Origin: Escherichia phage vB_EcoP_SP5M
Strand: one strand, 5' to 3'
Sequence record: NC_070869.1
Length of the DNA: 64,000 nucleotides
The notes below the pieces were generated by a model that saw only the letters and a program-made list of their open reading frames with translations, had not been told where the DNA came from and ran no database searches. The position numbers were made by a program, and so were the translations under genes. This document shows positions 26,564 through 39,561 of the stretch, one piece after another (positions within the stretch are counted from its first letter, which is position 1; each line of letters opens with the position of its first letter).

Positions 26564-26629
26564 TCCGGTGTAGGTACTAGTGTCGTGCACGGCATGAGTG
26601 TTCTGGTTCGAGTCCAGACGCCGGAACCA
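26564..26629 (+). ncRNA. tRNA-like minihelix (acceptor stem + T arm + CCA), 63 nt
   Basis: T arm TCTGG-TTCGAGT-CCAGA, acceptor TCCGGTG/CGCCGGA, discriminator A, encoded CCA; only 31 nt between acceptor and T arm and no anticodon stem-loop can be formed. Confidence 0.35.
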
Positions 26630-26631
26630 AT

Positions 26632-26755
26632 TACCAGTTGCACGAGATGGCTTGACATGTTCAAGTTTGGACTAAGTGTGACACCGCTAGATTGGAGGGC
26701 TGCTGCGGTAAGCTATAGACTCCAACCGGAGGTTCGAATCCTTCACTGGTAACCA
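26632..26755 (+). ncRNA. tRNA-like RNA, about 121 nt, with T arm, acceptor stem and CCA
   Basis: T arm GGAGG-TTCGAAT-CCTTC, acceptor TACCAGT/ACTGGTA, discriminator A, CCA; interior about 48 nt longer than a tRNA and not foldable into a cloverleaf by hand. Confidence 0.35.
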
Positions 26756-27031
26756 ATTCAAAGTAGCACTCGTTCATACTTCCCGGTATTTAAAGACACA
26801 TTCTTGTGTGAGTGCTACTTTGAGTTGGTAAAACCAAATAAAAGTCGCCAGGTACTTATGGCAAACGGGTAGTAACGAACTAGTCATTCGTCAAACGCCC
26901 ACCCAATTATGAGTCAGCAAGAACGCCTTCACTTAAACTTAAACAAAAAAGCTTAACGCAATAATTATGTAGGGGTATGTAAGGATTGCGAAGAAGGAGC
27001 CAGTTAGAGCCTGGCATGACTCACCTATTAA

Positions 27032-27104
27032 TACCCGGTAGGCTTAGTGGTAAAGCCCCACTAGTAAACCAACTAGGACGCAGGTTCGAATCCTGCCCGG
27101 GTAA
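27032..27104 (+). tRNA. tRNA, isotype undetermined (non-canonical anticodon loop)
   Basis: Acceptor TACCCGG/CCGGGTA, D arm GGCT-TAGTGGTAA-AGCC, T arm GCAGG-TTCGAAT-CCTGC; anticodon arm folds only as CTAGT/ACTAG with a 6-nt loop AAACCA (or 4-bp stem with 8-nt loop). Confidence 0.5.
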
Positions 27105-27113
27105 TCATATTAT

Positions 27114-27190
27114 GTCCGCTTAGCTTAGACTGGGAAAGCAACCGACTAATAATCGGAAGGTCACTGGTTCAAATCCAGTAGTGGACACCA
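27114..27190 (+). tRNA. tRNA with encoded CCA; anticodon loop CUAAUAA (apparent anticodon AAU)
   Basis: Acceptor GTCCGCT/AGTGGAC, D arm GCTT-AGACTGGGA-AAGC, anticodon stem CCGA/TCGG with loop CTAATAA, T arm ACTGG-TTCAAAT-CCAGT, discriminator A + CCA. Confidence 0.6.
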
Positions 27191-27424
27191 ATTCAGCAGT
27201 AACATAGTCCTGATTGCATAGCACTCTAAAGACAACACTGGTAAGACAGTCCAGTGGCTGCTAATGTATTGTTATTCCCCTCGACGGGAATTTCGCTAGT
27301 GAAGGTAACACTTAAAAATCCAAACCTACGTCTTACTACTATCAGGCTATCAACCCATGGTCGCTTAACCCTATAGTGATAGTAGTTTGACGGCCTGCTT
27401 CGTTGACTGCGTTAAAGTCACTAA

Positions 27425-27460
27425 GTCCCCTGGAGCCGCCACTCTGGGGGACTTTTTTAT
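27425..27460 (+). terminator. Rho-independent terminator after the tRNA region
   Basis: 11-bp stem GTCCCCTGGAG/CTCTGGGGGAC (two G.U) followed by TTTTTTATTT. Confidence 0.8.
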
Positions 27461-27629
27461 TTGAGAATTACTTATTGGACGATTCATATGATTGACCTAA
27501 TCTTAACCCCATATGCCTATGAGGTAACGGATAACCGAGGACGTAAGTCTTTAGTATTTGCAGGTAGCGTAGCCTATAACAACGCAGTCATGTTTAAATA
27601 CACACTCAAACCACTCTATGAGGCTAATA

Positions 27630-28010
27630 ATGGCAACAGTAAGCAAAGAATCAATCGAAGCTAAGATTAAGAGCGTCTACTATTTCAATGGTGCTGATGC
27701 AGTGAAGTCTGCATTCGTTAACCCTTCTGCACTTCCGGCAGACGATTTGGCTAACCTGGGCCTGGTAACATACTGTGTTATCATCCTGGAAAATGGCTTT
27801 AAAGTTGAGGGTGTATCTGCCTGTGCTGATCCGTCCATCTATGATGAATGGAAAGGTCGTCAGTATGCATATGAAAATGCATTCAATAAGATCTGGGAAT
27901 TGGAGGGTTACCTCCTACGTCAGGCGCTGCATGAGCAAGCCCAGAGCCAGGAAATGTTAAAGGGCTTCCTGGAAAATAATGAGTGTGAAGGTGGGGGTTG
28001 TAAAATTTAA
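27630..28010 (+). CDS. hypothetical protein
   Basis: ATG 27630 with GAGG upstream (track start 27618); conserved-looking core LVTYCVIILENGFKVEGVSACADPS. Confidence 0.5.
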   Translation: MATVSKESIEAKIKSVYYFNGADAVKSAFVNPSALPADDLANLGLVTYCVIILENGFKVEGVSACADPSIYDEWKGRQYAYENAFNKIWELEGYLLRQALHEQAQSQEMLKGFLENNECEGGGCKI

Positions 28011-28365: not shown

Positions 28366-28393
28366 AGCCCTCCTAGTGAGGGCTTTATCATTT
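28366..28393 (+). terminator. terminator-like hairpin
   Basis: Stem AGCCCTC/GAGGGCT followed by TTATCATTT. Confidence 0.4.
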
Positions 28394-28402
28394 GAGGTAG
28401 TT

Positions 28403-28891
28403 ATGTCAGAAGAAATTAAAGTTCACTTCACCAATTACATTGGAACCAAGTGTGTAAATGGTTTCAAGATGAACAAAGAAACATATTGCAAACTTCGTGG
28501 ATGGGATGTGCCTGCTAATGAAGACCCATTAGAAGTAGGTTACTTAGTAGAATACCCGGATTCTAAACCTAACCATGAGCAATTCCGTGGTTATATTAGC
28601 TGGTCACCGAGGGTTGCATTTGAAGCTGCATATTGTGATGTAGATAAGGGTTGTACTTTTGGTCACGTAGTAGAACTTATAAAACTAGGTCACAGACTGA
28701 CCCGTAAAAGCTGGAATGGTAAGGGAATGTATATCACCCTAGTACCTGGTGAAAATTGGGCTATGGATAAACATGAGAATACCGTGTGTGAGAAACGGGA
28801 TTGGTTGGGCATCAAAACTGTTGATGACCAGTTTATGCCTTGGGTTCCATCCCAATCGGATGTATTAGCTGAAGACTGGGTAATTCTGTAG
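28403..28891 (+). CDS. hypothetical protein
   Basis: ATG 28403 with GAGG upstream (track start 28376 is GTG inside the hairpin); segment RKSWNGKGMYITLVPG. Confidence 0.5.
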   Translation: MSEEIKVHFTNYIGTKCVNGFKMNKETYCKLRGWDVPANEDPLEVGYLVEYPDSKPNHEQFRGYISWSPRVAFEAAYCDVDKGCTFGHVVELIKLGHRLTRKSWNGKGMYITLVPGENWAMDKHENTVCEKRDWLGIKTVDDQFMPWVPSQSDVLAEDWVIL

Positions 28892-29145: not shown

Positions 29146-29172
29146 GCCCCTCATAGAGGGGCTTTTTTATTT
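29146..29172. terminator. bidirectional terminator between convergent plus-strand genes and the RNA polymerase gene
   Basis: Stem GCCCCTC/GAGGGGC, loop ATA; TTTTTTATTTT on plus side and TTTGCTTTT on minus side. Confidence 0.85.
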
Positions 29173-32100
29173 TAGTTTACTAAGTTCATCCAAGGGTTCA
29201 GGTTGTGAGCACGAAGCCCCTGACCAAAGCCCCATGAGTAATCCAGACTACCCTTAGCAGCAATGCTAAAGATGTTGTCCTGAATAGGTAAGCCAACGTT
29301 ACCAAACATGGTAGGAGTTGGAGCCAGCATCGCCATTGCTGCATGTACTGGGTTGTTACGAATCATGGACACTGCAACTTTTGCTGAACGAATCTTAAAG
29401 TTGTAGAACCACATTAAACCAACACTTTCCATATACCCACGGAAGCGACCCGGCAGACGGTCATAGTTAACGAACTCTTCCGTTACACGTCCCAGTGCTT
29501 CTTCACGAGTCTTACCTTTACGCTGGGTCAGTTCATCATAGATGATTGCTTTAGCGATAAAGTCAGAGTACTCAACAGTCTTCTGGATACCCTGGAACAA
29601 AGCAGTATCCTTAGTGATAAGTGCATAACGACCAGCAGTACGCACTGACTTAGGTAACTTATCAGCCAGCTTATCCATGTATTCGTGAAGTTTGCCCTCA
29701 GTAATCAGGATGTCATCACGACCGATACCAGCATCCGCAATTGAAGAGAACTCACCAGCTTCTAACAGAGGCCAGATACTCATACGCTTATGGCTATCAG
29801 TAATGGACTGAATCTCAGCCTTAAGTTTACGAATCTGGTTCGGGTTAGTAGCTGCACGTAATTCTGCTTCTGCATCTACCTGACGTAGACGAGATTTCAG
29901 GTACTGATTAATCTCAGCAGTCTTCTGTGGAATGCTCTTAGCAATGTTCTTAACCGGTACGCCACGGGCAACCATCTGGTAAAGGTTAGCCAAGAAGTTA
30001 ACAGCAGGTACGACTACTGACTTAACTACAATCAGAGTCTTAGCTTCTTTAACTAAGTTTTGAACCAGGTTCTCACCACCCATTGTGTACTTATATGCAC
30101 GGTTACCAAATACACCCAGCATAGCTTTCTTGAAGGTATCCAATGTTTCTGGGGACCAACGAGAATTACCAGACCAAGCATCCCCAACGGAAGCTGCACG
30201 ATAACCAAGTGCATCATTCAGCATGTCACGACGCACCCACAGTTCACCTTCACCGAATAAACTCTCTGCTTTCCGTCGAGTTTCACTGTTCATCAGCTTG
30301 AGAGCATCAGCAGTTACTGGGTCCAGTTTAGAACCAAGAAGATTCACATACTGGGACTTATTAGAGGCAGACATTTTAATGTCGTTCTCATACATGCTAT
30401 GCAGGTTCTCAATCAGCATATCGTTGAAGCGTTGAGCCTTAGCTTCTTCCACCTGACGACCACGCCATACACCAATTGCACGGGCAAGATGGTTCTCACC
30501 TTCAATGTGCTTCAGCATGTTAGGGTCAATGGATTGCTCATAGGCAACTACATTACCTTTATCGTCATATACTGGCAGCAGTGGTTCGTTGCCACGTTCA
30601 CCACGAGCCAGTGCTTTAGTGATACGGTCTACGGAAGGTTTGTCAGTAATACGACCAGCTACCATTGAACCTACCGTAAATCCTGTACCAAGATCTACAC
30701 CACCAGCAGTATCACGAACGTTCTGTAGGATACCCTGTGAGAATGGAGCCTGTGCCTGTACTGGTGCAAAGTAGTAGCTACGTGCTGGACCACGGTTAGC
30801 AGAGCTACCTTGATAAGTACCAAGACGTACATAGGACTTCTCAATCAAATCACCAAACTGGCTATCTTCAGCAACAATCAGATTAACACCCTGTTTAGTC
30901 TCACTAGGGATATGCCCTTTGTACTGGTTCAGAGTTGCACGTGGGTCAGACTTGGCTTTAGCCATTTCATCTTTACGCTGACCAACCAGATAAGAAGTAG
31001 CAAAGTCCATTCCATCAACTTCTGTCTGAGCCAGTGAAGATAACATTTCACGGTCAGACTTGTTCATTGCTTCCAGTGCATACAGGGTAATAAGTTTATC
31101 CAGTTGAGCTACATCTACAGTAGATCGAGCAGCCTGACGTTCACCCAGCATACGGGAGATTGCAGTAGCATTACGCAGTAGGTTATTACCAACTGTACCG
31201 TTAATCATGTACTGAGCCAGTTGCTTAGATTTACGATTAATCAGGGGCCAGTTACGACCAGCTTGTTTCTGCAAATCTGCTTCCAGCTTATTCACTTCAC
31301 GGTCAACAATCTTCTGGTCAGACAGCAGGTCACGGATTTCAGCCAGAGACATAGTATCCCGAAGAACAGCTAAGTCAGTTTTACCCATACCAGTGTGCAT
31401 TGCTTTCCACTCATCATTAGTCAGCTTACGACTGAACTTAGATGCGATAGTGGTAGGCAGATGTTCACGGAATTGCTGTCGGTCTGCTTGTACCTGTGCA
31501 CGAACTGCTTTAATCAAATCGTATACAGAAGCATTGCTCTTAGTACGACCGGTTAAGTCATTAATTAAGTCATGAAAAGGTTGCCATACCTTACCCTGGT
31601 TCATTGCTGCCATAACACCTTCAGCTACAATTGCACCATTCTTCTCTGTAGCAATAGCAGCTACCAGTTGTGCAGCATGAGCAGCACCTTTGACCAATGG
31701 GTTCTTAGTATTAGCTGCAACTTCACGAGCACTTTCTAAAGCACGAGTAGACAGTGCATCAATAGAATCCACCAGATACTGGTTAGCTCGGTCAATAGCA
31801 TTACCACTGGGAGTAGCAACGGAATCATAGAATGACTGTGCATTGAGGCTAGTCTGCATGATTGTCTGAGCCAGTGCATCCATACCTTCCTGTACGTTAG
31901 TAGCTTTGGTATCACCTGCTACACGGGCATTCAGGCTAGACATTGCAGCAGTACCAATGTTAGTCAGCATTGCATCAACGGTATTACCAGATTTCTTATC
32001 TGCTTTCATAACTGGAATGTTAGCCAGTACATTACGTACTTCTTCGCTAACCATTGCCAGACCAACAAAGGTAGGCAGTAAGGAAGAACGACCCTGTGCA

Positions 32101-35100
32101 TCAAACTCAATGTTGTTAGCACCCATGATTGTATCGAACTTCTGTTGAGCATAGTAACGGTCAGCAGGGTTAGTACTATCTGGGTCAGCCATGAATGCTT
32201 CAACGGTCAGGTTCTTAGTAACGTGTGCATAGTATTCCTGTACACGAGAAAGAGCTGCCGGACTAATAGCAGCTTCGGTAGCCAGTGCAGCAACGATATT
32301 AGTGAACAGACGTTGCTCCTGCATATTCATAGTGAAGCCATGGGCCTGAACATCACGGGTTACTTTAGTTGCATTCACTACTGCATCAGAGAACTTACCT
32401 TTACGAATTACTTGCTGTACTGGTTCAGAACCAATGTAGTTAGTAATCAGTTTATCAAAGGTCTGCCCCAACTCTTCCAGACGGGTATTGTCACCGTATG
32501 CCTTGTTATGGAACAAGGTAGTGTCCTTGGATACAGCAGCAGTAGGAGCCTGTCCACGCATAACCACAGAGGAGTTAAACAGTAAGCCAGAGAACATATC
32601 ATCTGCATTAGCAGGTGCTTTCTTGCGACCAAATACCAGACGCTTGATTGCTTCATACACAGACTGAACCATAGCTTTCAGTGCTGTGGTCTTCTTCTGC
32701 TTACCAATCAATTCACGGTTGGTTAAACCCCAAGCCATGTACTCATTCAGTGCAGCAGCTTTAGCCATTGCAGGTTCAATGAAGCCATTAGACAGGTGAC
32801 CATTAATGGTAATAAGTGCATCAGCATATGCTTCACGTACTGCCGGAGATTCGTTCTTAACATCCAGAGTACGGAACTGGTTCATCAGGTCTTCAATATT
32901 CTGGACTGCTTCATTATGAGTACCCTCGTAGTGAGCCAGTACAGATTCAAAAGTGGAAGCATGTACCAATTCATGAACCAGAGTCTCTAAGGAAGGGGTA
33001 ACTAAGTAGATGGTCTTATCATCGAAGTTAGTCCAACCATACGCATTACCTGCTTCGGCAGCTTCAATATCTTCCGGTGCTGGACGGGTAATGTTCTTCT
33101 CAATAGCATAAGCATCCAGTTGAGCAGGTGTACCGTAAACAACCTTGTAGTCTTTAGCAGCAAGAGATTTCTGTACTTCCTTCAATACTGCTTGCTGCTC
33201 AGGAGACATCTCTTTAGCCAGCTTAGTAATAGCAGTATTGGACAGCAGACGTACACCAGACTTAAGTACACGACCAACTTGTTCCATTGCTGGAATTTCT
33301 TTCACTGGTTCTGCTTTAGCAGCACGTACTGCATCACGACGCTTGTTTAATTCAGCATCAAACAGTTCGTTCAACTTAGCTACTTGCTGGTCTACAGTCA
33401 GACCTTCCAGAGAGATTTTACCGTTATTCACATAAGGAGCACCTACAGCAGCCATCTGGTCAACAGTGGTCTGCACCTGGTTCATTACTTTGTGGCGAAT
33501 ATCTACACCAAGAGCAATGTTACGCAGGTTACGTTCAATCTGTTCAGCACCTGCACGTAACAGGTCATCAGTAGCTCCCTCACGCTGGTCATATTCCAGA
33601 GCAGATTTAGCGATAGCCTGTTTGGTTTCATCAGACAGTTTGCTGAAGTCTACATTCTTCATGAACTTAGCGTAGGAGTCATAAACATTCTTGATAGGGT
33701 TACCCTGCCAAGAAGTGTATACAGCCTCGTTAGCTTTGCGACTTGCATCAGTGATGTCACTGATACCAATGTTCATACCATCAAAGATTTTCAAGGTATT
33801 CTTTGGAGCACCTTTCATAGTAGAAAGGGTCTGCATCATCATGCCATCACCAGTACCGATGGTCATAAATGGAATACCTGCAACACCTGCCTGTGAAGGA
33901 GCATAGATGCTCATTGGCACACGCATACGGTCATCTAAGTTGGTAGCCAGTACTTGGTTAGCAACATCAGTATTCTCACTACCAGCAATGTAGAAAGTCT
34001 GTGAGCCAGTCTCAATCATTGGAGCCAGTGGAGATAAAGATTCCTGGATTTCATTCAGTTCTTTCTGTGTTAAGAAATCACCCTTCTTCCAGGTTGAGTC
34101 TTTTTCTTTTTCTGCCAGCTTAGCCTGTACTGCTTGCTGGAACATATCCTGCAATACCAGAGACTGAATCTGGGTAGCCTTCTGCAAGTTCTCAGTAGAG
34201 TGCATCAGACCTTCACCAACAGTATTACGGATACCAGTACGCATTGGTTCAACGAACAGGTAGAGCATGTTCTCTTGTAAGTTCTTCAGGGCATTACCGG
34301 ATACGGTAAATTTCTGAGGGTTTAACTTACCAGTCAGAGCACCATCTACTTGCTGAATAGACAACTCACCTTTACGCACAACTGGAACATTGCCAGTCAG
34401 TGCTTCCATAGAAGTAAGGAAAGTATCCAGCATAGCCTGAGCATCAGCCTCAGACGCAGCCTCCTTACCAAACATTGCCATAGCTGGGGAAATGCTAGGG
34501 TCAGCAGCCCGTGCTTGCAGAACGTCACTGAGGCGTTCATAGATGGTGTCAGTAATTGCACTAACCATCTTACCAGCAATACCACGAGCACCAGAACCAT
34601 AGATGGTAATGGTCAGTGGGTTTTTGGCGATACCACGTTTCAGGTCCAGAGTACCGTCTTCATTCAGGTTGAAGTCTTTAATGAACAAGTCCATTAACTT
34701 CTGAAGATGGTTCATCTGGCTCATAACTGGAACGTTGTTACGGTAAGTAGTACGTAACTCATTCAGGGCTTGTTGCAGACCATTGGTAGATGCTTCATAC
34801 AGGTCAACACTGTCATCCTGTGAACGATGCTCGTTCATAGTCTTACCAGCTTTACCAAAGAACAAACCACCCTTAGCAGTATTCTTAATCCAGTCTGGAG
34901 TGAACTTACCACCAGTCATTAATACCATTGCGTTGATTGGGCCGTTAGTTACACCATCAGCTTCAACGTACAGTGGAGTATTAAAGTTGGCACGGTCATC
35001 GCTGTTCAGGTAACGAGCATATTCCATCAGAGCCATGAGAGCCACGAAGGATTTGTCACCACCCAGAGAAGTCTTCAGGATATCTACTGCATCAGCAGGT

Positions 35101-38100
35101 AAGTGACCAGACTTATCGAACTCAACCATCATATCAACAGCTGGCTTCAGATTGCCTTCCAGAGCCTTGGTCAGCTTTTCAGACATAGCCTCACGGGACA
35201 TGTTATGTACCTTGATGCCCAATGCCTGAGCCAGTCCTAGCTGGAAGTCAGAGTACGCTTGGCTGTTTTCATTACTTAAGTCGATAGTAGAGAAGGTCGG
35301 CAGAATTGCTTCACGAACCAGTTTACTGGATTGTGGGTTGTTCTTACCAAGCATCTGCATACGGCCTACACGAGTCATGTTGTAACTGTAGTGAATAGGA
35401 GTATCCAGTCCATTCTCTTGTTCTCGTATCTGATTAATTACACCGAACAGAGAATCATATGCCATAGACACGGACAGGTTTTTACCTTCCAGAGATTTAG
35501 CAGTGTTCTCATTCAGTAAGTCAGGATTAAGAGTACCAGCACCCATCAGTTCCAGAATGTTGTCACGGCCTAATGCTTCATAGAAGTTAACCATCGGCAT
35601 ATGTACACGGAACTCAGTAGCCTGTTCAGCTTTCAGAGCAGCTTTCTGCTCAGGGGTATTTTTAACAGCAGGATTACGTAACTGAGTTTGAGCCACGGAA
35701 GGAATGTCATCACCGAAGTACATTTTCTCTTCCGGATTTACCAGCACAGCTTCCTCAATTGCTGTAGGGAAATCATTAATAGGGTCTTTATCTGCCAGCT
35801 TATTAATGGTGTACAGACCAACAGTCTTATTAGAGTCTGGGTCAATCTCAGACACATCCAGCATAGTCTCAGTAACTGCACCCATCTCAATGAGAGAAGA
35901 CAGAATCTCTGTAGCCATTGCCATTGGGATACCTTTTGTATATCCCAAAGGTGCATTAGGATTGCGATTTAAACCCCAGTAGGATTCAATCTTCTGAGCC
36001 AGTGAGCTAGTAGCTTCAACCAGAGTCTGGGCATTCTCAAACTCAGCCAGAATACTTTCTGGTAACAGAGATGCTTCTACACCAGTAATAGCAGCTACAT
36101 CTTTCATATCTTTAATAGCAGCATTCTGTGTAGCAGTCAGTCGCCATTGCAGACCAGCAAGCACAGCAGTCTCTAACAACTGGTCATTGAACTTAAAGGT
36201 ATCACCATCTCGTTCAACGATATTCAGCAGTTTGCCACCTACCCAACGATTAGCCTCAGTACCTTCTGCAAAACGTTTACCAACATTTTTGTTAGCAAGG
36301 AACTTAGCCAGTCGTTCAGACAGAGTAGTCTTCAGAGTTTCCCCAAAGTCCATCAAGTCCTGATAACGTTTCATCACATCACTGGTGAGAGCGTTATTTT
36401 CTTTTTGAGTGAATGCTTCAAAGCGAGCAGCAGAAGACAGTGCTTGCTTAATATCAGTCAAAGGAGATTCAGAACCAATGGTACGGGACTTAGGTTCTTC
36501 TGGTAGGGTAAATGCTTTCAGGAACTGGTTCGGTGTCTTTTCATTGTTATAGACAGGGAACACTGTTTCCATTTCTGTTTTGGTTTCGACTACTTCCTGG
36601 GTAGCATCTACTGTTTCAGATTCAGTAGTAGAGACTTCTTCTGCTTTTGGACTAGTCTCCTTAGTAGGAGCAGTCTTATTTTCTACCACTGGTTTAGATT
36701 TAGGCTGTACAGTAGTAGTGTCCTCTTGCACTGGTGCAGGAGATTCATCAACCTGATTCACTGGTTCATTGGTCTGTTGGGATTGAGCAGCATCAAGACT
36801 GCCCTGACGGAACTCTTTAACTACCTGAGCAGCAGGCTTGTTCAGACGTGGATCCAACGAGGTAACTTTCACATGAGAAACATTAAGCTCCGGGTAAGCC
36901 GTAGCAAGTGCATTAGCAATATCAGCTACGGTTTTGGCCTCCAGTCCTACTTGCTGGGCAAACTTAACAGACTTGGTATCATAAGGATTGACACCGAGAC
37001 CAGTACGACTACGTACCCATTCACGGGAAGGCGAGAGAGCCTGATAATGAACAGACTTATTCTTATCCGCATTCCCAGAAATCAGATGCTCATTCAACGC
37101 TCCGACCTTATTCTGCATGTGCTGGGCGAACTTCATAAAGTCGCTCAGATAAGCGGAGGCCAAATCGAAGTTACCAGAGTTATACGCAGAACGAATGCGT
37201 TTCGCATGTTGCAACGCAGAGTACTGTCCTTCGTTAGAACGAGACTCGTCGGTTTTAATCTGTTTACTAACAATGTCTTGAGGACGTAAGCCTAGTTCTT
37301 CTGCTTTAGCGTCGAACTCACGTGCACCCTGTAATAAGGCAGCAGCCGATTGCAGGGCAGCACGTTGACGATTCCCCAGTGTAATCTTACCTTCACTTGC
37401 ATGTTTCAGAACCATGTTCACTGAATCTGCGTCCAGTACTTCTGGAGACACATCAGCAGCCATAGCAATGTTGTTTGCTTGGGCTTGGTTAGCTTCTTCA
37501 GTAGCTTTCAGCTTACCTGCTTCAGCCTGTTCCTGAATCATGGAATGGATAGCACGGAATGCACGGAGTACTTTAGGGGTATTCTGTACGTTAGCCATCA
37601 GACCGGAGAACTGGTCTACGATAGTAGCAGCAGGGGAACCTTGTTCCAGATTAGCCAGAGCACCTGGGTCACGGTTAATGAAGCTATCCATAGACATGAT
37701 GTTGTCATACATCTGGATTGCAGCTTCCATTTGAACGTTAGGGTCTTCGGCAGTATTAACCAGGTCAGCCATCTTCTGAATAGCTTCTACACGGTTAGTG
37801 GAACCAGAAACAGCTTCACGGATTACTGGGTTAGCTTGTTCCAATTCTACTGGGTCAAACTTCATTGCCTGAGTTAAGTCAGCAGCATACTGAGTAGCAG
37901 CAGCTTTCTCTTCTGGAGTGATATCCATTGCATCTACTGCTTCCTGTACAGTTGCTTGTGCTTGCTCTGCCTGAGCAGCAGCTTCCTGTGCAGCAGCGTT
38001 AACCGTAGCATCAGCTACAGGGGATGCTTGTTCATTACGCTTAGCAACTTCTTCACCACGTTGAACCAGGATGTTAGTAAGAGGAGATGCAGCTTTTGCT

Positions 38101-39503
38101 AATGTTTTACCAACCAGAGAAGCACCAGCCAGAGTAGTACGAAGAGCAGGACCAGCAGCAGCTCCGGCAGCTTTAACAGTTGCACCTGGAGCTTGAGCAA
38201 CCCCAGCACTACCGAAGCCATAAAGTGCACCAAGACCTGCTTGCTCACCAACCCCTTTGAGAGTGTCACGGGATGCATCAACATTTTCCTTGATTGCACG
38301 GTTCTGGGCATACTGACCAAAGCCTGACTGAATACCTTCCTCTACAGTCTCACGAAGCATATTAGAACCAGCACCTGCCAGTGAACCTACCTTAAGTGGA
38401 TTAAGTTCAAACTTGGATACCAGTGGACCAGTAGCAGCAGCAACTGGGGCAGTTAAGCCAGCAGCAATGATACCTGTTTCGGATGCAGTCTGACGACGTG
38501 CTTCATCAGGAGATAATCCATCAGCAATATGTTGTTGGTAAACAGGAGATTTACTTGCCAGTTCTTGATGAGGCATCTTCATGATTTCAGAAGCAGTCTG
38601 TTGGTATGCACCACCAGCTTCCATACCACCGATTGCAATAGCAGGTGCAGCAACACGACCAGCAGACAATGCAACCTGTGCAGGACGTGAACCTAACTCA
38701 GCAGCTAAGGTAATACCCTTAACAGCTTTATCCCCTCCTACCATTACTTTACCGAGTGCAGATACACCACGGATAAGTGGACCACCAGTAAAGAGGGAAC
38801 CAACACCTTCACTCAGTCCATCGGAGGCAGCCATACCATTATCAAGTGTATTAGCAACAGAATCGAAAGCATCACGACCAATGCGGGACAAGGAGGCAAC
38901 CAAATCGCTCTCCCCGTTTTTGATGTCTTGTTCATAAAGTTTCTGGTTCTTTTGAGCAGAAATCTGGTTCTGATTCTGAACAACTTTACGGGTAGCATTC
39001 AGTGCATCAGACTGTAAATTGTGTACACCTTCATTCAACCAATCCATCCCGGAAGCAATGGATGCCCCGGCATTATCATTGACCAGACCTGTGCCAAGAG
39101 CAGCAATGCCCCCAAGGGTATTAGCAACACCAAGACCAACACCAGAAAGAGTATCGCCAAATGCTTCTGCGTTAGTACGTTGTTTAGATAAGTCCTGACG
39201 TACAGCATCAGCAGCATTAGCTCGGCTATTAAGAATTTGTAGACCCTGCTCATTACCGTATTTATTAATGATTTCTAAGGGGGAGGCTTGAGTGAAATCT
39301 GCCTGAAGTGAACCTGGTTCGAATGCACCGATTCCAAGATTACCTACTCGTCCGGTCTGGAGATTGTAAGCATTCTCTGGGGTTAATTGGAAAGGGCTTT
39401 GCCCTTGTGCAGCTTGCTTCTGAGAGGTTGCAGTAGAGACATCGACTTGCTTAGCATTAGTGATGCTGTCTGCGAAACCTGCCAGACGGTCAAATGTTGA
39501 CAT
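29172..39503 (-). CDS. virion RNA polymerase (giant, N4 vRNAP-like)
   Basis: 3,443 codons from ATG 39503 (AGGAAA RBS; track start 39521 is TTG); size typical of N4-like virion RNAP; T7-like motif B with identical spacing R-x3-K-x7-YGS (RGIAKNPLTITIYGSG). Confidence 0.85.
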   Translation of the reverse strand: MSTFDRLAGFADSITNAKQVDVSTATSQKQAAQGQSPFQLTPENAYNLQTGRVGNLGIGAFEPGSLQADFTQASPLEIINKYGNEQGLQILNSRANAADAVRQDLSKQRTNAEAFGDTLSGVGLGVANTLGGIAALGTGLVNDNAGASIASGMDWLNEGVHNLQSDALNATRKVVQNQNQISAQKNQKLYEQDIKNGESDLVASLSRIGRDAFDSVANTLDNGMAASDGLSEGVGSLFTGGPLIRGVSALGKVMVGGDKAVKGITLAAELGSRPAQVALSAGRVAAPAIAIGGMEAGGAYQQTASEIMKMPHQELASKSPVYQQHIADGLSPDEARRQTASETGIIAAGLTAPVAAATGPLVSKFELNPLKVGSLAGAGSNMLRETVEEGIQSGFGQYAQNRAIKENVDASRDTLKGVGEQAGLGALYGFGSAGVAQAPGATVKAAGAAAGPALRTTLAGASLVGKTLAKAASPLTNILVQRGEEVAKRNEQASPVADATVNAAAQEAAAQAEQAQATVQEAVDAMDITPEEKAAATQYAADLTQAMKFDPVELEQANPVIREAVSGSTNRVEAIQKMADLVNTAEDPNVQMEAAIQMYDNIMSMDSFINRDPGALANLEQGSPAATIVDQFSGLMANVQNTPKVLRAFRAIHSMIQEQAEAGKLKATEEANQAQANNIAMAADVSPEVLDADSVNMVLKHASEGKITLGNRQRAALQSAAALLQGAREFDAKAEELGLRPQDIVSKQIKTDESRSNEGQYSALQHAKRIRSAYNSGNFDLASAYLSDFMKFAQHMQNKVGALNEHLISGNADKNKSVHYQALSPSREWVRSRTGLGVNPYDTKSVKFAQQVGLEAKTVADIANALATAYPELNVSHVKVTSLDPRLNKPAAQVVKEFRQGSLDAAQSQQTNEPVNQVDESPAPVQEDTTTVQPKSKPVVENKTAPTKETSPKAEEVSTTESETVDATQEVVETKTEMETVFPVYNNEKTPNQFLKAFTLPEEPKSRTIGSESPLTDIKQALSSAARFEAFTQKENNALTSDVMKRYQDLMDFGETLKTTLSERLAKFLANKNVGKRFAEGTEANRWVGGKLLNIVERDGDTFKFNDQLLETAVLAGLQWRLTATQNAAIKDMKDVAAITGVEASLLPESILAEFENAQTLVEATSSLAQKIESYWGLNRNPNAPLGYTKGIPMAMATEILSSLIEMGAVTETMLDVSEIDPDSNKTVGLYTINKLADKDPINDFPTAIEEAVLVNPEEKMYFGDDIPSVAQTQLRNPAVKNTPEQKAALKAEQATEFRVHMPMVNFYEALGRDNILELMGAGTLNPDLLNENTAKSLEGKNLSVSMAYDSLFGVINQIREQENGLDTPIHYSYNMTRVGRMQMLGKNNPQSSKLVREAILPTFSTIDLSNENSQAYSDFQLGLAQALGIKVHNMSREAMSEKLTKALEGNLKPAVDMMVEFDKSGHLPADAVDILKTSLGGDKSFVALMALMEYARYLNSDDRANFNTPLYVEADGVTNGPINAMVLMTGGKFTPDWIKNTAKGGLFFGKAGKTMNEHRSQDDSVDLYEASTNGLQQALNELRTTYRNNVPVMSQMNHLQKLMDLFIKDFNLNEDGTLDLKRGIAKNPLTITIYGSGARGIAGKMVSAITDTIYERLSDVLQARAADPSISPAMAMFGKEAASEADAQAMLDTFLTSMEALTGNVPVVRKGELSIQQVDGALTGKLNPQKFTVSGNALKNLQENMLYLFVEPMRTGIRNTVGEGLMHSTENLQKATQIQSLVLQDMFQQAVQAKLAEKEKDSTWKKGDFLTQKELNEIQESLSPLAPMIETGSQTFYIAGSENTDVANQVLATNLDDRMRVPMSIYAPSQAGVAGIPFMTIGTGDGMMMQTLSTMKGAPKNTLKIFDGMNIGISDITDASRKANEAVYTSWQGNPIKNVYDSYAKFMKNVDFSKLSDETKQAIAKSALEYDQREGATDDLLRAGAEQIERNLRNIALGVDIRHKVMNQVQTTVDQMAAVGAPYVNNGKISLEGLTVDQQVAKLNELFDAELNKRRDAVRAAKAEPVKEIPAMEQVGRVLKSGVRLLSNTAITKLAKEMSPEQQAVLKEVQKSLAAKDYKVVYGTPAQLDAYAIEKNITRPAPEDIEAAEAGNAYGWTNFDDKTIYLVTPSLETLVHELVHASTFESVLAHYEGTHNEAVQNIEDLMNQFRTLDVKNESPAVREAYADALITINGHLSNGFIEPAMAKAAALNEYMAWGLTNRELIGKQKKTTALKAMVQSVYEAIKRLVFGRKKAPANADDMFSGLLFNSSVVMRGQAPTAAVSKDTTLFHNKAYGDNTRLEELGQTFDKLITNYIGSEPVQQVIRKGKFSDAVVNATKVTRDVQAHGFTMNMQEQRLFTNIVAALATEAAISPAALSRVQEYYAHVTKNLTVEAFMADPDSTNPADRYYAQQKFDTIMGANNIEFDAQGRSSLLPTFVGLAMVSEEVRNVLANIPVMKADKKSGNTVDAMLTNIGTAAMSSLNARVAGDTKATNVQEGMDALAQTIMQTSLNAQSFYDSVATPSGNAIDRANQYLVDSIDALSTRALESAREVAANTKNPLVKGAAHAAQLVAAIATEKNGAIVAEGVMAAMNQGKVWQPFHDLINDLTGRTKSNASVYDLIKAVRAQVQADRQQFREHLPTTIASKFSRKLTNDEWKAMHTGMGKTDLAVLRDTMSLAEIRDLLSDQKIVDREVNKLEADLQKQAGRNWPLINRKSKQLAQYMINGTVGNNLLRNATAISRMLGERQAARSTVDVAQLDKLITLYALEAMNKSDREMLSSLAQTEVDGMDFATSYLVGQRKDEMAKAKSDPRATLNQYKGHIPSETKQGVNLIVAEDSQFGDLIEKSYVRLGTYQGSSANRGPARSYYFAPVQAQAPFSQGILQNVRDTAGGVDLGTGFTVGSMVAGRITDKPSVDRITKALARGERGNEPLLPVYDDKGNVVAYEQSIDPNMLKHIEGENHLARAIGVWRGRQVEEAKAQRFNDMLIENLHSMYENDIKMSASNKSQYVNLLGSKLDPVTADALKLMNSETRRKAESLFGEGELWVRRDMLNDALGYRAASVGDAWSGNSRWSPETLDTFKKAMLGVFGNRAYKYTMGGENLVQNLVKEAKTLIVVKSVVVPAVNFLANLYQMVARGVPVKNIAKSIPQKTAEINQYLKSRLRQVDAEAELRAATNPNQIRKLKAEIQSITDSHKRMSIWPLLEAGEFSSIADAGIGRDDILITEGKLHEYMDKLADKLPKSVRTAGRYALITKDTALFQGIQKTVEYSDFIAKAIIYDELTQRKGKTREEALGRVTEEFVNYDRLPGRFRGYMESVGLMWFYNFKIRSAKVAVSMIRNNPVHAAMAMLAPTPTMFGNVGLPIQDNIFSIAAKGSLDYSWGFGQGLRAHNLNPWMNLVN

Positions 39504-39561
39504 AGCATGTTTCCTGTTCAAACTTATATCGTATATAGGTAACTTACTCTACAGTAAGCCA

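What the first reader, a model, noticed from the sequence alone, without database searches (positions are those of the whole stretch)
26564..26755. Two tandem tRNA-like minihelices with encoded CCA that cannot fold as cloverleaves
Both elements have a canonical T arm (GGTTCGAGTCC / GGTTCGAATCC), a 7-bp acceptor stem, an A discriminator and an encoded CCA, and they are 2 nt apart. The first has only 31 nt between acceptor and T arm and no anticodon stem-loop can be formed; the second has about 80 nt. They look like acceptor/T-arm mimics and may be RNase P-processed stable RNAs analogous to the small stable RNAs in the T4 tRNA cluster, or substrates/decoys for host tRNA-targeting enzymes. A degenerate tRNA or one with an insertion is also possible.
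Basis: seen in the sequence. Interest (0 to 1): 0.65.

Follow-up and report, generated by a model that had tools for sequence, protein, structure and literature searches.

The report
Non-decoding tRNA-derived RNAs, N4-like phage
Two adjacent genes in the tRNA cluster of an N4-like coliphage encode conserved RNAs that keep the amino-acid-accepting "top half" of a tRNA but have lost a usable anticodon, so they probably act as tRNA look-alikes, much like the T4 "species 1" RNA whose role is still unknown.

Summary
E1 (26564-26629, 66 nt) and E2 (26632-26755, 124 nt) each have a 7-bp acceptor stem contiguous with a canonical T arm, then A73 and an encoded CCA. They lie 2 nt apart. Chance expectation for this pattern is about 0.003 per 64 kb. 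ARAGORN and Rfam find no cloverleaf.

The window is a Gamaleyavirus (N4/G7C-like). The elements sit in a roughly 1.5-kb ORF-poor RNA island that ends in a strong terminator.

E1 is a D-armless tRNA-like RNA. A stem-loop does form at the anticodon position, with 5 bp and an invariant GUGCAC loop. E1 is 100% identical in phage N4, where flanking genes are 71-84% identical, and its stems covary.

E2 derives from a class II tRNA-Ser. Its anticodon loop has shrunk to 5 nt, and its D region and variable arm are expanded. Its acceptor, T and hairpin stems covary.

E1 and E2 are independent modules: their order is swapped in KP8, and each occurs without the other. The 72-aa ORF spanning them is not conserved.

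The best reading is selectively maintained, non-decoding tRNA top-half mimics matured by tRNA-processing enzymes. The closest analogue is T4 RNA C. Function is untested; a decoy role is plausible but speculative. I class this as a new variant of a known kind.

The parts
26500..26563 (+). Conserved 5' leader that travels with E1. It contains the hairpin GCCAGG-UGGAAUC-CCUGGC. Its role is unknown.
   Evidence: It precedes E1 in N4, Gamaleyavirus and KP8 at 91-100% identity. It precedes a different tRNA-like RNA (E3) in VTCCBPA_322. It is absent before E1 in cp20. Fold.
26564..26629 (+). E1: a 66-nt D-armless tRNA-like RNA. Acceptor 26564-70 pairs with 26619-25. Invariant linker UAGGUACUA 26571-79. 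Five-bp stem 26580-84 with 26591-95. Invariant loop GUGCAC 26585-90. Variable region 26596-601. T arm 26602-18. A73 at 26626. CCA 26627-29.
   Evidence: Sequence. In 8 distinct homologues, 99.3% of stem cells are paired and 5 pairs change on both sides; 0 of 500 shuffles reach this. It is 100% identical in phage N4. Some GenBank records annotate it as tRNA-Undet/OTHER.
26632..26755 (+). E2: a 124-nt tRNA-Ser-derived tRNA-like RNA. Acceptor 26632-38 pairs with 26745-51. U8, A14, R15 and G18G19 sit at canonical numbering. CAC/GUG helix 26641-43 with 26676-78. Hairpin 26649-67 is homologous to the anticodon stem and has a 5-nt loop. Linker 26679-91. Arm II 26692-725 corresponds to the variable arm. 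T arm 26728-44. A73 at 26752. CCA 26753-55.
   Evidence: 99.6% of stem cells are paired, with 3 covarying acceptor pairs, 1 in the T stem and 1 in the hairpin. The best non-self hits of the E2 covariance model are the phage tRNA-Ser(UGA) genes, at 30.9 and 30.2 bits. Alignment.
26753..26828 (+). Downstream long-stem module. Its closing stem begins at the CCAAUU of E2 and ends in ...GAGUUGG, so the E2 CCA is base-paired in the precursor.
   Evidence: Fold: -28.9 kcal/mol, z = -6.0. The same arrangement follows E1 in N4, KP8 and IME11.
27423..27454 (+). Intrinsic terminator that closes the ORF-poor RNA island running from about 25925 to 27460.
   Evidence: A 13-bp stem followed by TTTTTTATTT. 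Equivalent terminators are visible in N4 and KP8.

Best explanation
**What they are.** E1 and E2 are two independent, selectively maintained genes for non-decoding RNAs derived from tRNAs.

**How they are made (inferred, by analogy with E. coli and T4 tRNA maturation).**
- They are transcribed on the + strand as part of a long precursor covering the tRNA/ncRNA island, which ends at the terminator at 27423-27454.
- They are cut out like tRNAs. RNase P recognises the 12-bp acceptor/T-stem stack plus RCCA and cleaves at each 5' end.
- Cleavage at the 5' end of E2 leaves a 2-nt trailer on E1, which exonucleases trim back to the encoded CCA.

**What the mature RNAs look like.** The 66-nt and 124-nt RNAs present a canonical tRNA top half: acceptor stem, T arm, elbow nucleotides, A73 and CCA. 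Neither has a 7-nt anticodon loop, so neither can decode.

**How they most likely act.**
- They act as top-half mimics that bind, or are modified by, a factor that reads the acceptor/CCA end or the elbow.
- E1's invariant linker and GUGCAC loop, and E2's invariant core, would supply specificity.
- The sub-hypothesis I favour is a decoy or sponge for a host tRNA-targeting immune effector. I put this at about 0.2.

**Shown:** anatomy, conservation, covariation, origin from tRNA, and independence of the two modules. **Inferred:** transcription, processing, stability and function.
For: **Anatomy and chance.** Anatomy; chance control.

**Stems are maintained by compensatory change.**
- E1: 99.3% of cells paired, 5 pairs with changes on both sides.
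- E2: 99.6% paired, 5 such pairs.

**Loops are invariant while stems turn over.**
- E1's stem is GUGUC/GGCAU in the window and ACCCU/AGGGU in cp20.
- The flanking UAGGUACUA and GUGCAC never change.

**Conservation.** Leader plus E1 is 95.6% identical between N4 and the window, and E1 itself is 100% identical. Neighbouring genes are 71-84% identical.

**Origin from tRNA.**
- E2's T-arm region and 5' part match phage tRNA-Ser(UGA).
- The KP8-lineage hairpin CCUGAC-AUGU-UCAGG equals the tRNA-Ser anticodon stem CCUGAC-UUGAAA-UCAGG.

**Context.**
- Every tRNA in these clusters also has an encoded CCA followed by A(A)UU.
- The island ends in a terminator.
- T4 makes tRNAs and its species I and II RNAs from one ~1.75-kb precursor (PMC2330249).

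**Not coding.**
- No Pfam or PHROG hit.
- The ORF is broken in relatives.

**Plausibility of a decoy role.**
- Immune effectors that act on tRNA acceptor or CCA ends exist: toxSAS FaRel2 (PMC11559606) and MenT (PMC7450476).
- Phage tRNAs are known to counter defences (PMC11555353). All three were seen.
- A Tad2-like anti-defence gene lies just downstream.
Against: - No expression, end-mapping or processing data exist for these loci.
- Only 8 distinct sequences of each element are available, all from closely related phages. Covariation counts may therefore be inflated by shared descent.
- The invariance of E2's core, and E1's identity with N4, could reflect recent recombinational spread rather than purifying selection.
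- Both elements are dispensable at the genus level. N4 lacks E2. PhAPEC7, F22 and Mimir124 lack E1. VTCCBPA_322 has E3 in place of E1.
- Occasional mismatches occur: U·U in the KP8 E2 T stem and C·A in the cp20 E1 acceptor stem.
- No interacting partner has been identified.
- Single-sequence folding energies are not exceptional: z = -1.7 for E1 and -0.2 for E2.
Confidence: 0.55

Rival explanations
1. They are decaying tRNA pseudogenes: relics of a tRNA-Ser and another tRNA that lost decoding function and persist only because they are young or hitch-hike in a recombining region.
For: - Both clearly derive from tRNAs.
- The region is mosaic, with modules gained, lost and reordered among close relatives.
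- Several other odd tRNAs lie nearby.
- Sequence diversity is low, so selection is hard to prove.
Against: - Substitutions in stems are compensatory and loops are invariant. Neutral decay would not produce this.
- E1 is more conserved between N4 and this phage than any neighbouring gene.
- E1 persists across four genera, including cp20, where its stem has been fully rewritten.
- The CCA, discriminator and T loop are intact in every copy.
Confidence: 0.15
2. They are purely cis-acting processing punctuation. The tRNA-like folds serve only as RNase P and 3'-end processing signals that cut the long island transcript and release or stabilise the neighbouring structured RNAs. The excised E1 and E2 have no function of their own.
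For: - The island is a string of structured modules between tRNA-like elements, ending at one terminator.
- The CCA of E2 is paired into the stem of the next module.
- T4 processes its tRNAs and stable RNAs from one precursor (PMC2330249).
- Only the acceptor/T half, which is the RNase P determinant, is canonical.
Against: - Punctuation needs only the minihelix. It does not explain the invariant 9-nt linker and GUGCAC loop of E1, the covarying non-acceptor stems, or the 60-nt invariant core of E2.
- In cp20, E1 sits directly between ordinary tRNAs, where no extra punctuation is needed.
Confidence: 0.2
3. They are real decoding tRNAs with unusual structure. E1 would be a D-armless tRNA-Cys(GCA), because the KP8, IME11 and cp20 variants have a 7-nt loop GUGCACA with U33. 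E2 would be an intron- or insert-bearing tRNA.
For: - The 7-nt-loop variants have U at position 33 and GCA at positions 34-36.
- Relaxed ARAGORN calls tRNA-Cys(gca) near E1 of KP8, and intron-containing tRNAs for E2.
- D-armless tRNAs function in mitochondria (established knowledge).
Against: - The window and N4 form of E1 has a 6-nt loop, or a UGCA tetraloop closed by G-C.
- Position 37 is C, and the discriminator is A rather than the U73 that E. coli CysRS needs (established knowledge).
- The relaxed ARAGORN calls differ between homologues (Pro, Thr and Tyr; different introns; shifted acceptor stems), so they are forced fits.
- E2's hairpin loop is 5 nt.
- No known bacterial splicing mechanism removes 24-82-nt inserts of this kind.
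Confidence: 0.04
4. The region encodes a 72-aa protein (ORF 26534-26752, + strand), and the RNA-like features are incidental.
For: An uninterrupted ATG-initiated ORF spans both elements. A few GenBank records call hypothetical proteins here.
Against: - In PBM-2, ECBP1 and N4-type sequences a 1-nt indel gives an in-frame TAA after 9 codons (GGC AAT TAA).
- KP8 has a TAG in the E2 frame and the two elements in reverse order.
- Substitutions are paired across stems and are non-synonymous.
- No Pfam or PHROG match.
Confidence: 0.01

Closest known systems
Phage T4 species 1 RNA (rnaC) and species 2 RNA (rnaD)
   Same: - They are small RNAs encoded at the end of a phage tRNA cluster and made from the same long precursor as the tRNAs (PMC2330249).
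- rnaC (139 nt) has a canonical T arm abutting the 3' strand of a terminal stem, and a predicted four-way junction with two expanded arms, like E2 and E3.
- It has no Rfam family.
- Its function is still unknown (PMC3014915).
   Different: - No sequence homology was detected. The E2 model hits only tRNA-Leu in the T4 locus.
- The rnaC terminal stem is imperfect, and no CCA is encoded after it.
- rnaD has no T arm.
- E1 (66 nt, D-armless) has no T4 counterpart.
Canonical bacterial/phage tRNA, especially class II tRNA-Ser(UGA) of N4-like phages
   Same: - Seven-bp acceptor stem, T arm with a UUCGAxU loop, A73 and an encoded CCA followed by AUU.
- E2 shares GUUG..GAGA..GG at its 5' end with tRNA-Ser.
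- E2 also shares the anticodon stem (in the KP8 lineage).
- E2 shares CCGRAGGUUCGAAUCCUUCAC as well.
- Arm II of E2 aligns to the long variable arm.
   Different: - No 7-nt anticodon loop: 6 nt in E1 and 5 nt in E2.
- E1 has no D arm.
- E2 has lost the normal 3' strand of the D stem, and gained about 26 nt after the anticodon-like stem plus a 34-nt arm II.
- Both fall below the tRNA covariance-model and ARAGORN thresholds.
D-armless mitochondrial tRNAs (e.g. metazoan mt tRNA-Ser(AGY))
   Same: E1 has the same three-arm layout, with a short D-replacement linker between the acceptor stem and the anticodon-like stem.
   Different: - E1 is from a phage of Enterobacteria.
- Its loop is 6 nt in this window.
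- ARAGORN in -mt mode does not recover E1 at its true boundaries.
- There is no evidence of decoding.
Viral and cellular non-decoding tRNA mimics: MHV68 vtRNAs/TMERs, mascRNA, bacterial YrlA
   Same: These are tRNA-like folds used as processing handles or protein-binding mimics rather than for decoding. TMERs, like this island, place stem-loop modules right after a tRNA-like element. This comparison rests on established knowledge and was not tested here.
   Different: - They use eukaryotic or Ro-associated systems.
- Rfam YrlA, mascRNA and tmRNA models give no hit on E1 or E2.
- YrlA ends in a long Ro-binding stem, not ACCA.

Membership tests
tRNA (Rfam RF00005 / cloverleaf) | 7-bp acceptor stem, discriminator, 3' CCA | tested here: met
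   E1 is TCCGGTG/CGCCGGA + A + CCA. E2 is TACCAGT/ACTGGTA + A + CCA.
tRNA (Rfam RF00005 / cloverleaf) | T arm: 5-bp stem and 7-nt loop U54 U55 C56 R57 A58 | tested here: met
   E1 has UCUGG-UUCGAGU-CCAGA and E2 has GGAGG-UUCGAAU-CCUUC. Both stems covary.
tRNA (Rfam RF00005 / cloverleaf) | D arm (3-4 bp stem, A14, G18G19) | tested here: not met
   E1 has only a 9-nt linker, UAGGUACUA. E2 keeps U8, A14, R15 and G18G19, but the stem closes across a 32-nt insert that contains another hairpin.
tRNA (Rfam RF00005 / cloverleaf) | Anticodon arm: 5-bp stem with a 7-nt loop carrying U33 and an anticodon | tested here: not met
   E1 has a 6-nt loop, GUGCAC, in this window (7 nt in KP8, IME11 and cp20). 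E2's homologous hairpin has a 5-nt loop, CAUGU.
tRNA (Rfam RF00005 / cloverleaf) | Score above threshold with covariance model or ARAGORN | tested here: not met
   No Rfam hit at E<=10 on 26564-26755. ARAGORN at default finds none. tRNAscan-SE could not be run, though some GenBank records list E1 as tRNA-Undet/OTHER.
T4 rnaC-type stable RNAs of phage tRNA clusters | Encoded inside or at the end of a phage tRNA gene cluster, on the same strand | tested here: met
   In the window, E1 and E2 lie 277 nt upstream of the odd tRNA at 27032 and tRNA-Ile. In N4, E1 lies between tRNA-Thr and tRNA-Pro.
T4 rnaC-type stable RNAs of phage tRNA clusters | T arm adjoining a terminal stem, non-cloverleaf, about 120-140 nt | tested here: met
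   E2 (124 nt) and E3 (128-137 nt) match the layout predicted for rnaC. E1 is shorter, at 66 nt.
T4 rnaC-type stable RNAs of phage tRNA clusters | Sequence or profile homology to T4 rnaC/rnaD | tested here: not met
   The E2 covariance model finds only tRNA-Leu in the T4 locus. BLAST of E1 and E2 against phages returns only Schitoviridae.
T4 rnaC-type stable RNAs of phage tRNA clusters | Accumulates as a stable RNA processed from the tRNA precursor by RNase P | not testable with these tools
   This needs RNA from infected cells. Only the substrate determinants (12-bp stack, T loop, RCCA) are present in the sequence.
tmRNA | tRNA-like domain plus tag ORF and pseudoknots | tested here: not met
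   ARAGORN finds no tmRNA. No Rfam tmRNA hit falls on E1 or E2; the only weak permuted-tmRNA hit lies on the real tRNAs.
YrlA / Y RNA-like tRNA mimics | Match to the Rfam YrlA model; termini form a long Ro-binding stem | tested here: not met
   The only YrlA hit (19 bits, E = 0.49) spans the junction of the two real tRNAs, not E1 or E2. E1 and E2 end in a 7-bp stem plus ACCA.

The most novel reading that the evidence does not exclude
E1, E2 and the related E3 and odd tRNAs would be RNA-based anti-defence factors. As stable tRNA top-half decoys, their accessible ACCA ends or elbows would soak up or inhibit host immune effectors that modify or cleave tRNA acceptor ends, such as toxSAS, MenT/AbiEii nucleotidyltransferases or acceptor-stem tRNases. 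The shared U1-A72/A73 signature and E1's invariant GUGCAC loop would be the recognition code. This would also suggest a function for the long-unexplained T4 RNA C.
Probability: 0.15. Interest if true: 0.85.

Novelty: new variant of a known kind. Interest (0 to 1): 0.5.

Why it matters
**Annotation.** Phage tRNA clusters are usually read as codon-supply or anticodon-nuclease countermeasures, and 'tRNA-Undet' calls are usually dismissed as pseudogenes.

**What is different here.** At least two RNA families, probably more, have lost decoding but keep the acceptor/T half under compensatory evolution. One of them is identical between N4 and G7C-type phages.

**What it makes testable.** Non-decoding tRNA mimicry may be a recurrent phage strategy, and this gives a tractable E. 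coli/N4 system to test it. It also offers a way into a 50-year-old open question: what T4 RNA C and RNA D do.

**Practical value.** The covariance models built here could be used to annotate these genes in Schitoviridae genomes. At present E2 is unannotated, or is overlaid with spurious 'hypothetical protein' ORFs.

Tried and rejected
**Detection tools.**
- Rfam at the gathering threshold and at E<=10 gives nothing on E1 or E2.
- ARAGORN in relaxed, intron and mitochondrial modes gives only inconsistent forced calls, which I rejected.

**Coding potential.** I tested protein coding for the + strand ORF 26534-26752 and the - strand ORF 26372-26590. Neither has a family hit, and the + strand ORF is broken in relatives.

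**Searches for more distant E1 homologues.**
- I scanned IMG/VR, GTDB genomes and JGI metagenomes with TAGGTACTANNNNNGTGCAC.
- Only one new variant turned up. All 46 bacterial-genome matches lack a T arm and are chance.
- Covariance models R1 and R2, run on about 30 Schitoviridae loci, found no divergent members.

**Host mimicry.**
- BLAST against E. coli genomes finds no match.
- A manual alignment shows that E1 shares its T arm and U1C2C3 with E. coli tRNA-Asn. T arms are too constrained for this to count as evidence.

**Antisense targets.** A search of the window for targets of E1 or E2 gave only chance-level matches of 13 nt or less.

**The leader.** I could not support it as a vRNAP hairpin promoter, because its loop is 7 nt rather than 3 (KP8 promoter table). 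The sigma-70 scan finds nothing there.

**E1 stem extension.** The UACU/AGUG extension seen in the minimum-free-energy fold is not kept in homologues.

**Literature.** I found no paper describing these RNAs beyond 'tRNA-Undet' or 'six tRNA genes, four identified'.

Full report
**Where we are.** BLAST of 26200-27300 against GenBank phages shows the window is a Gamaleyavirus (G7C/N4-like, Schitoviridae, Enquatrovirinae). The best matches are 94-96% identical. The 3449-aa ORF at 29172-39521 on the - strand matches in position and size the gene annotated there in related records. By analogy with phage N4 I take it to be the virion RNA polymerase (my own knowledge; those records label it otherwise). 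The finding lies in an ORF-poor stretch from about 25925 to 27460. This stretch follows the SSB and resolvase-like replication genes and ends in a strong + strand intrinsic terminator at 27423-27454. ARAGORN and Rfam find only two tRNA genes in the whole window: an odd tRNA at 27032-27104 and tRNA-Ile at 27114-27190. Rfam also finds a group I intron at 22445-23199.

**The observation.**
- E1 runs from 26564 to 26629. It reads TCCGGTG, 31 nt, TCTGG-TTCGAGT-CCAGA, CGCCGGA, A, CCA.
- E2 runs from 26632 to 26755. It reads TACCAGT, 89 nt, GGAGG-TTCGAAT-CCTTC, ACTGGTA, A, CCA.
- Two nucleotides separate them.

I scanned for the full pattern: a T arm, a contiguous perfect 7-bp acceptor stem, and NCCA. 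In the window this finds only E1, E2 and tRNA-Ile. In 300 Markov-simulated 64-kb sequences the mean is 0.003 hits. Neither element is recognised as a tRNA by default ARAGORN, or by any Rfam model at E<=10. Relaxed ARAGORN modes give forced solutions that differ between homologues (Pro, Thr, Tyr or Cys, with different introns), so I reject them.

**E1.**
- *Distribution.* Homologues occur in phage N4 (100% identical), other Enquatrovirus, Gamaleyavirus, Kaypoctavirus KP8 and the more distant Klebsiella phage cp20 (Efbeekayvirus). Eight distinct sequences align without difficulty.
- *Fold.* Seven-bp acceptor stem; an invariant 9-nt linker UAGGUACUA in place of a D arm; a 5-bp stem; an invariant loop GUGCAC (GUGCACA in KP8, IME11 and cp20); a 6-7-nt variable stretch; the T arm; A73; CCA.
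- *Covariation.* On this structure 99.3% of cells are paired, and five pairs change on both sides. Neither the shuffled controls nor the slid controls come close. In cp20 the inner stem is completely rewritten, from GUGUC/GGCAU to ACCCU/AGGGU, while the linker and loop stay unchanged.
What is missing is the D arm. In this window the loop has 6 nt, or is a UGCA tetraloop closed by G-C, so it cannot present an anticodon.
- *Conservation.* Between N4 and this phage, leader plus E1 is 95.6% identical, and flanking genes are 71-84% identical.
- *Existing annotation.* A few GenBank records list E1 as tRNA-Undet(nnn) or tRNA-OTHER. The KP8 paper mentions 'six tRNA genes', of which four were identified (PMC6950046).
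- *Search for more relatives.* Scans of IMG/VR, GTDB genomes and metagenomes with the invariant motif added one variant and no bacterial copies.

**E2.**
- *Distribution and covariation.* Eight distinct sequences from Gamaleyavirus and Kaypoctavirus are 92-100% identical. Most of the substitutions fall in stems and are compensatory. The acceptor stem is TACCAGT/ACTGGTA, TATCAGT/ACTGATA or TACTGGT/ACCAGTA. The T stem is GGAGG/CCTTC or GGGGG/CCCTC. The hairpin is CUUGA/UCAAG or CCUGA/UCAGG. Overall 99.6% of cells are paired. The central 60 nt are nearly invariant.
- *Origin from tRNA-Ser.* E2 keeps U8, A14, R15 and G18G19 at canonical numbering. Its 5' part (GUUG.CA.GAGA.GG) and its T-arm region (CCGRAGGUUCGAAUCCUUCAC) match the class II tRNA-Ser(UGA) of N4 and cp20. 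The KP8-lineage hairpin CCUGAC-AUGU-UCAGG is the anticodon stem of that tRNA (CCUGAC-UUGAAA-UCAGG) with the loop cut to 5 nt.
- *Model search.* The best non-self hits of a covariance model of E2 are those tRNA-Ser genes, at 30.9 and 30.2 bits. Arm II of E2 aligns to the long variable arm.
- *Conclusion.* E2 is a tRNA-Ser derivative that has lost its anticodon loop and its normal D stem. It has gained about 26 nt after the anticodon-like stem and a 34-nt arm II.

**Independence and non-coding status.**
- In KP8 and its relatives E2 comes first, and E1 with its leader follows about 140 nt later.
- N4 has E1 only.
- PhAPEC7, F22, Mimir124 and others have E2 only.
- In VTCCBPA_322 the leader is followed by a third tRNA-like RNA, E3. 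It is 128 nt, with acceptor UCCAGGA, T loop UUCGAUU and ACCA. E3 also occurs in two more distant IMG/VR phages.
- The 72-aa ORF covering both elements in this window is not conserved. Most relatives have GGC AAT TAA nine codons in. KP8 has a TAG in the E2 frame. The ORF has no Pfam or PHROG match.

**How it most likely works.** The shown facts are these:
- a canonical acceptor/T-arm top half with an encoded CCA;
- no anticodon loop;
- compensatory evolution of the stems;
- invariant loops;
- a location in a tRNA cluster that ends at a terminator.

Every tRNA in these clusters also has an encoded CCA followed by A(A)UU. In T4, the tRNAs and the species I and II RNAs come from one ~1.75-kb precursor (PMC2330249). 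From this I infer that E1 and E2 are excised by RNase P and 3' trimming, as tandem tRNAs are. The 2-nt spacer becomes E1's trailer. I further infer that they accumulate as stable non-decoding RNAs that work through top-half mimicry.

Which factor they engage is unknown. A decoy for immune effectors aimed at the acceptor or CCA end is plausible. Such effectors exist: toxSAS FaRel2 (PMC11559606) and MenT (PMC7450476). Phage tRNAs are known counter-defences (PMC11555353). All three papers were seen. A Tad2-like anti-defence gene lies just downstream. None of this is tested. A purely cis-acting punctuation role is the main rival, but it does not explain E1's invariant linker and loop or E2's invariant core.

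**Comparison with known things.** The closest analogue is T4 RNA C (species 1). I retrieved it, found a canonical T arm next to the 3' strand of its terminal stem, and obtained a predicted four-way junction like that of E2 and E3. It has no encoded CCA and no detectable homology to E2. Its function is still unknown (PMC3014915). E1 resembles D-armless mitochondrial tRNAs in layout only. tmRNA and YrlA are excluded. I found no paper that describes E1 or E2.

**Caveats.** There are no expression data. Only eight closely related sequences are available for each element, so covariation may be inflated by shared descent. In this mosaic region, invariance may partly reflect recent exchange. The elements are dispensable at the genus level.

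**Verdict.** This is a new variant of a known kind, namely the small tRNA-like RNAs of phage tRNA clusters. Interest is moderate.

Noticed in passing
window 27032-27104 (+): An odd tRNA (ARAGORN 'tRNA-???', Rfam tRNA 42.5 bits) with normal D and T arms but a 6-nt anticodon loop, AAACCA. In this window it ends UCA instead of CCA; PBM-2 and IME11 have CCA. KP8 has further tRNAs with aberrant loops (L006 914-988 and 1168-1243).
   Followed up: partly
window 26500-26563 (+): A highly conserved leader with the hairpin GCCAGG-UGGAAUC-CCUGGC, whose UGGAA is T-loop-like. It always precedes E1 in Enquatrovirinae, precedes E3 in VTCCBPA_322, and is absent in cp20. Its role is unknown: promoter, processing signal or separate RNA.
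   Followed up: partly
window 26753-26828 (+); N4 locus L004 1566-1685: Very stable long-stem modules (z = -6.0) directly follow the tRNA-like elements. Their closing stems run from CCAAUU... to ...AAUUGG, so the CCA is paired in the precursor. They may be RNase III sites or cassette boundaries. The N4 copy contains an internal T arm.
   Followed up: partly
window 26341-26462 (+): A multi-branched module of about 120 nt closed by a long stem (z = -3.4). The stem covaries against PBM-2, while the interior is replaced by different structured sequence in other phages. One such interior is conserved in PBM-2, KP8, PhAPEC7 and cp20 (GCUGUGGAAGGUAGGCCGAUGUCCACAAGCGUGGCCCAG) and could form a pseudoknot.
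   Followed up: no
L027 1137-1264; L086 3239-3375; L089 3263-3399: A third non-cloverleaf tRNA-like family, E3, of 128-137 nt. It has acceptor UCCAGGR, a conserved arm GUCAGG-GUUCAYGG-CCUGAY, T loop UUCGAUU and ACCA. Arm I is highly divergent.
   Followed up: partly
E1, E2, E3, odd tRNA 27032, KP8 L006 1168-1243: Five of six non-canonical tRNA-like families start with U1-A72, and four of those five have A73. In E1, E2 and E3 a U at position -1 could extend the stem to 8 bp. Among the canonical tRNAs of these clusters, only tRNA-Gln starts with U1.
   Followed up: no
window 22445-23199 (+): A group I intron (Rfam 58.3 bits) carrying an internal ORF (22590-23081). The downstream ORF 23227-23667 matches only the C-terminal part of Sak4-like/AAA_24 ssDNA-annealing proteins, so the intron appears to split that gene.
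   Followed up: partly
window 28376-28888 (+): A protein with a Tad2-like (Thoeris anti-defence 2, PF11195, 81 bits) C-terminal domain lies just downstream of the RNA island. It follows a Phage_gp49_66 family gene at 27618-28007.
   Followed up: no
window 27195-27329 (+): Another non-coding module conserved with N4 (76%) and KP8 (87%). It lies between tRNA-Ile and the terminator at 27423-27454. It has no Rfam match.
   Followed up: no
L006 ~1468-1506; L222 ~675-708: In KP8 and PhAPEC7 the module just upstream of E2 ends in a hairpin (CCCCGUCC...ACGGGG) followed by A(A)CCA. This is another CCA-terminated element, without a T arm.
   Followed up: no
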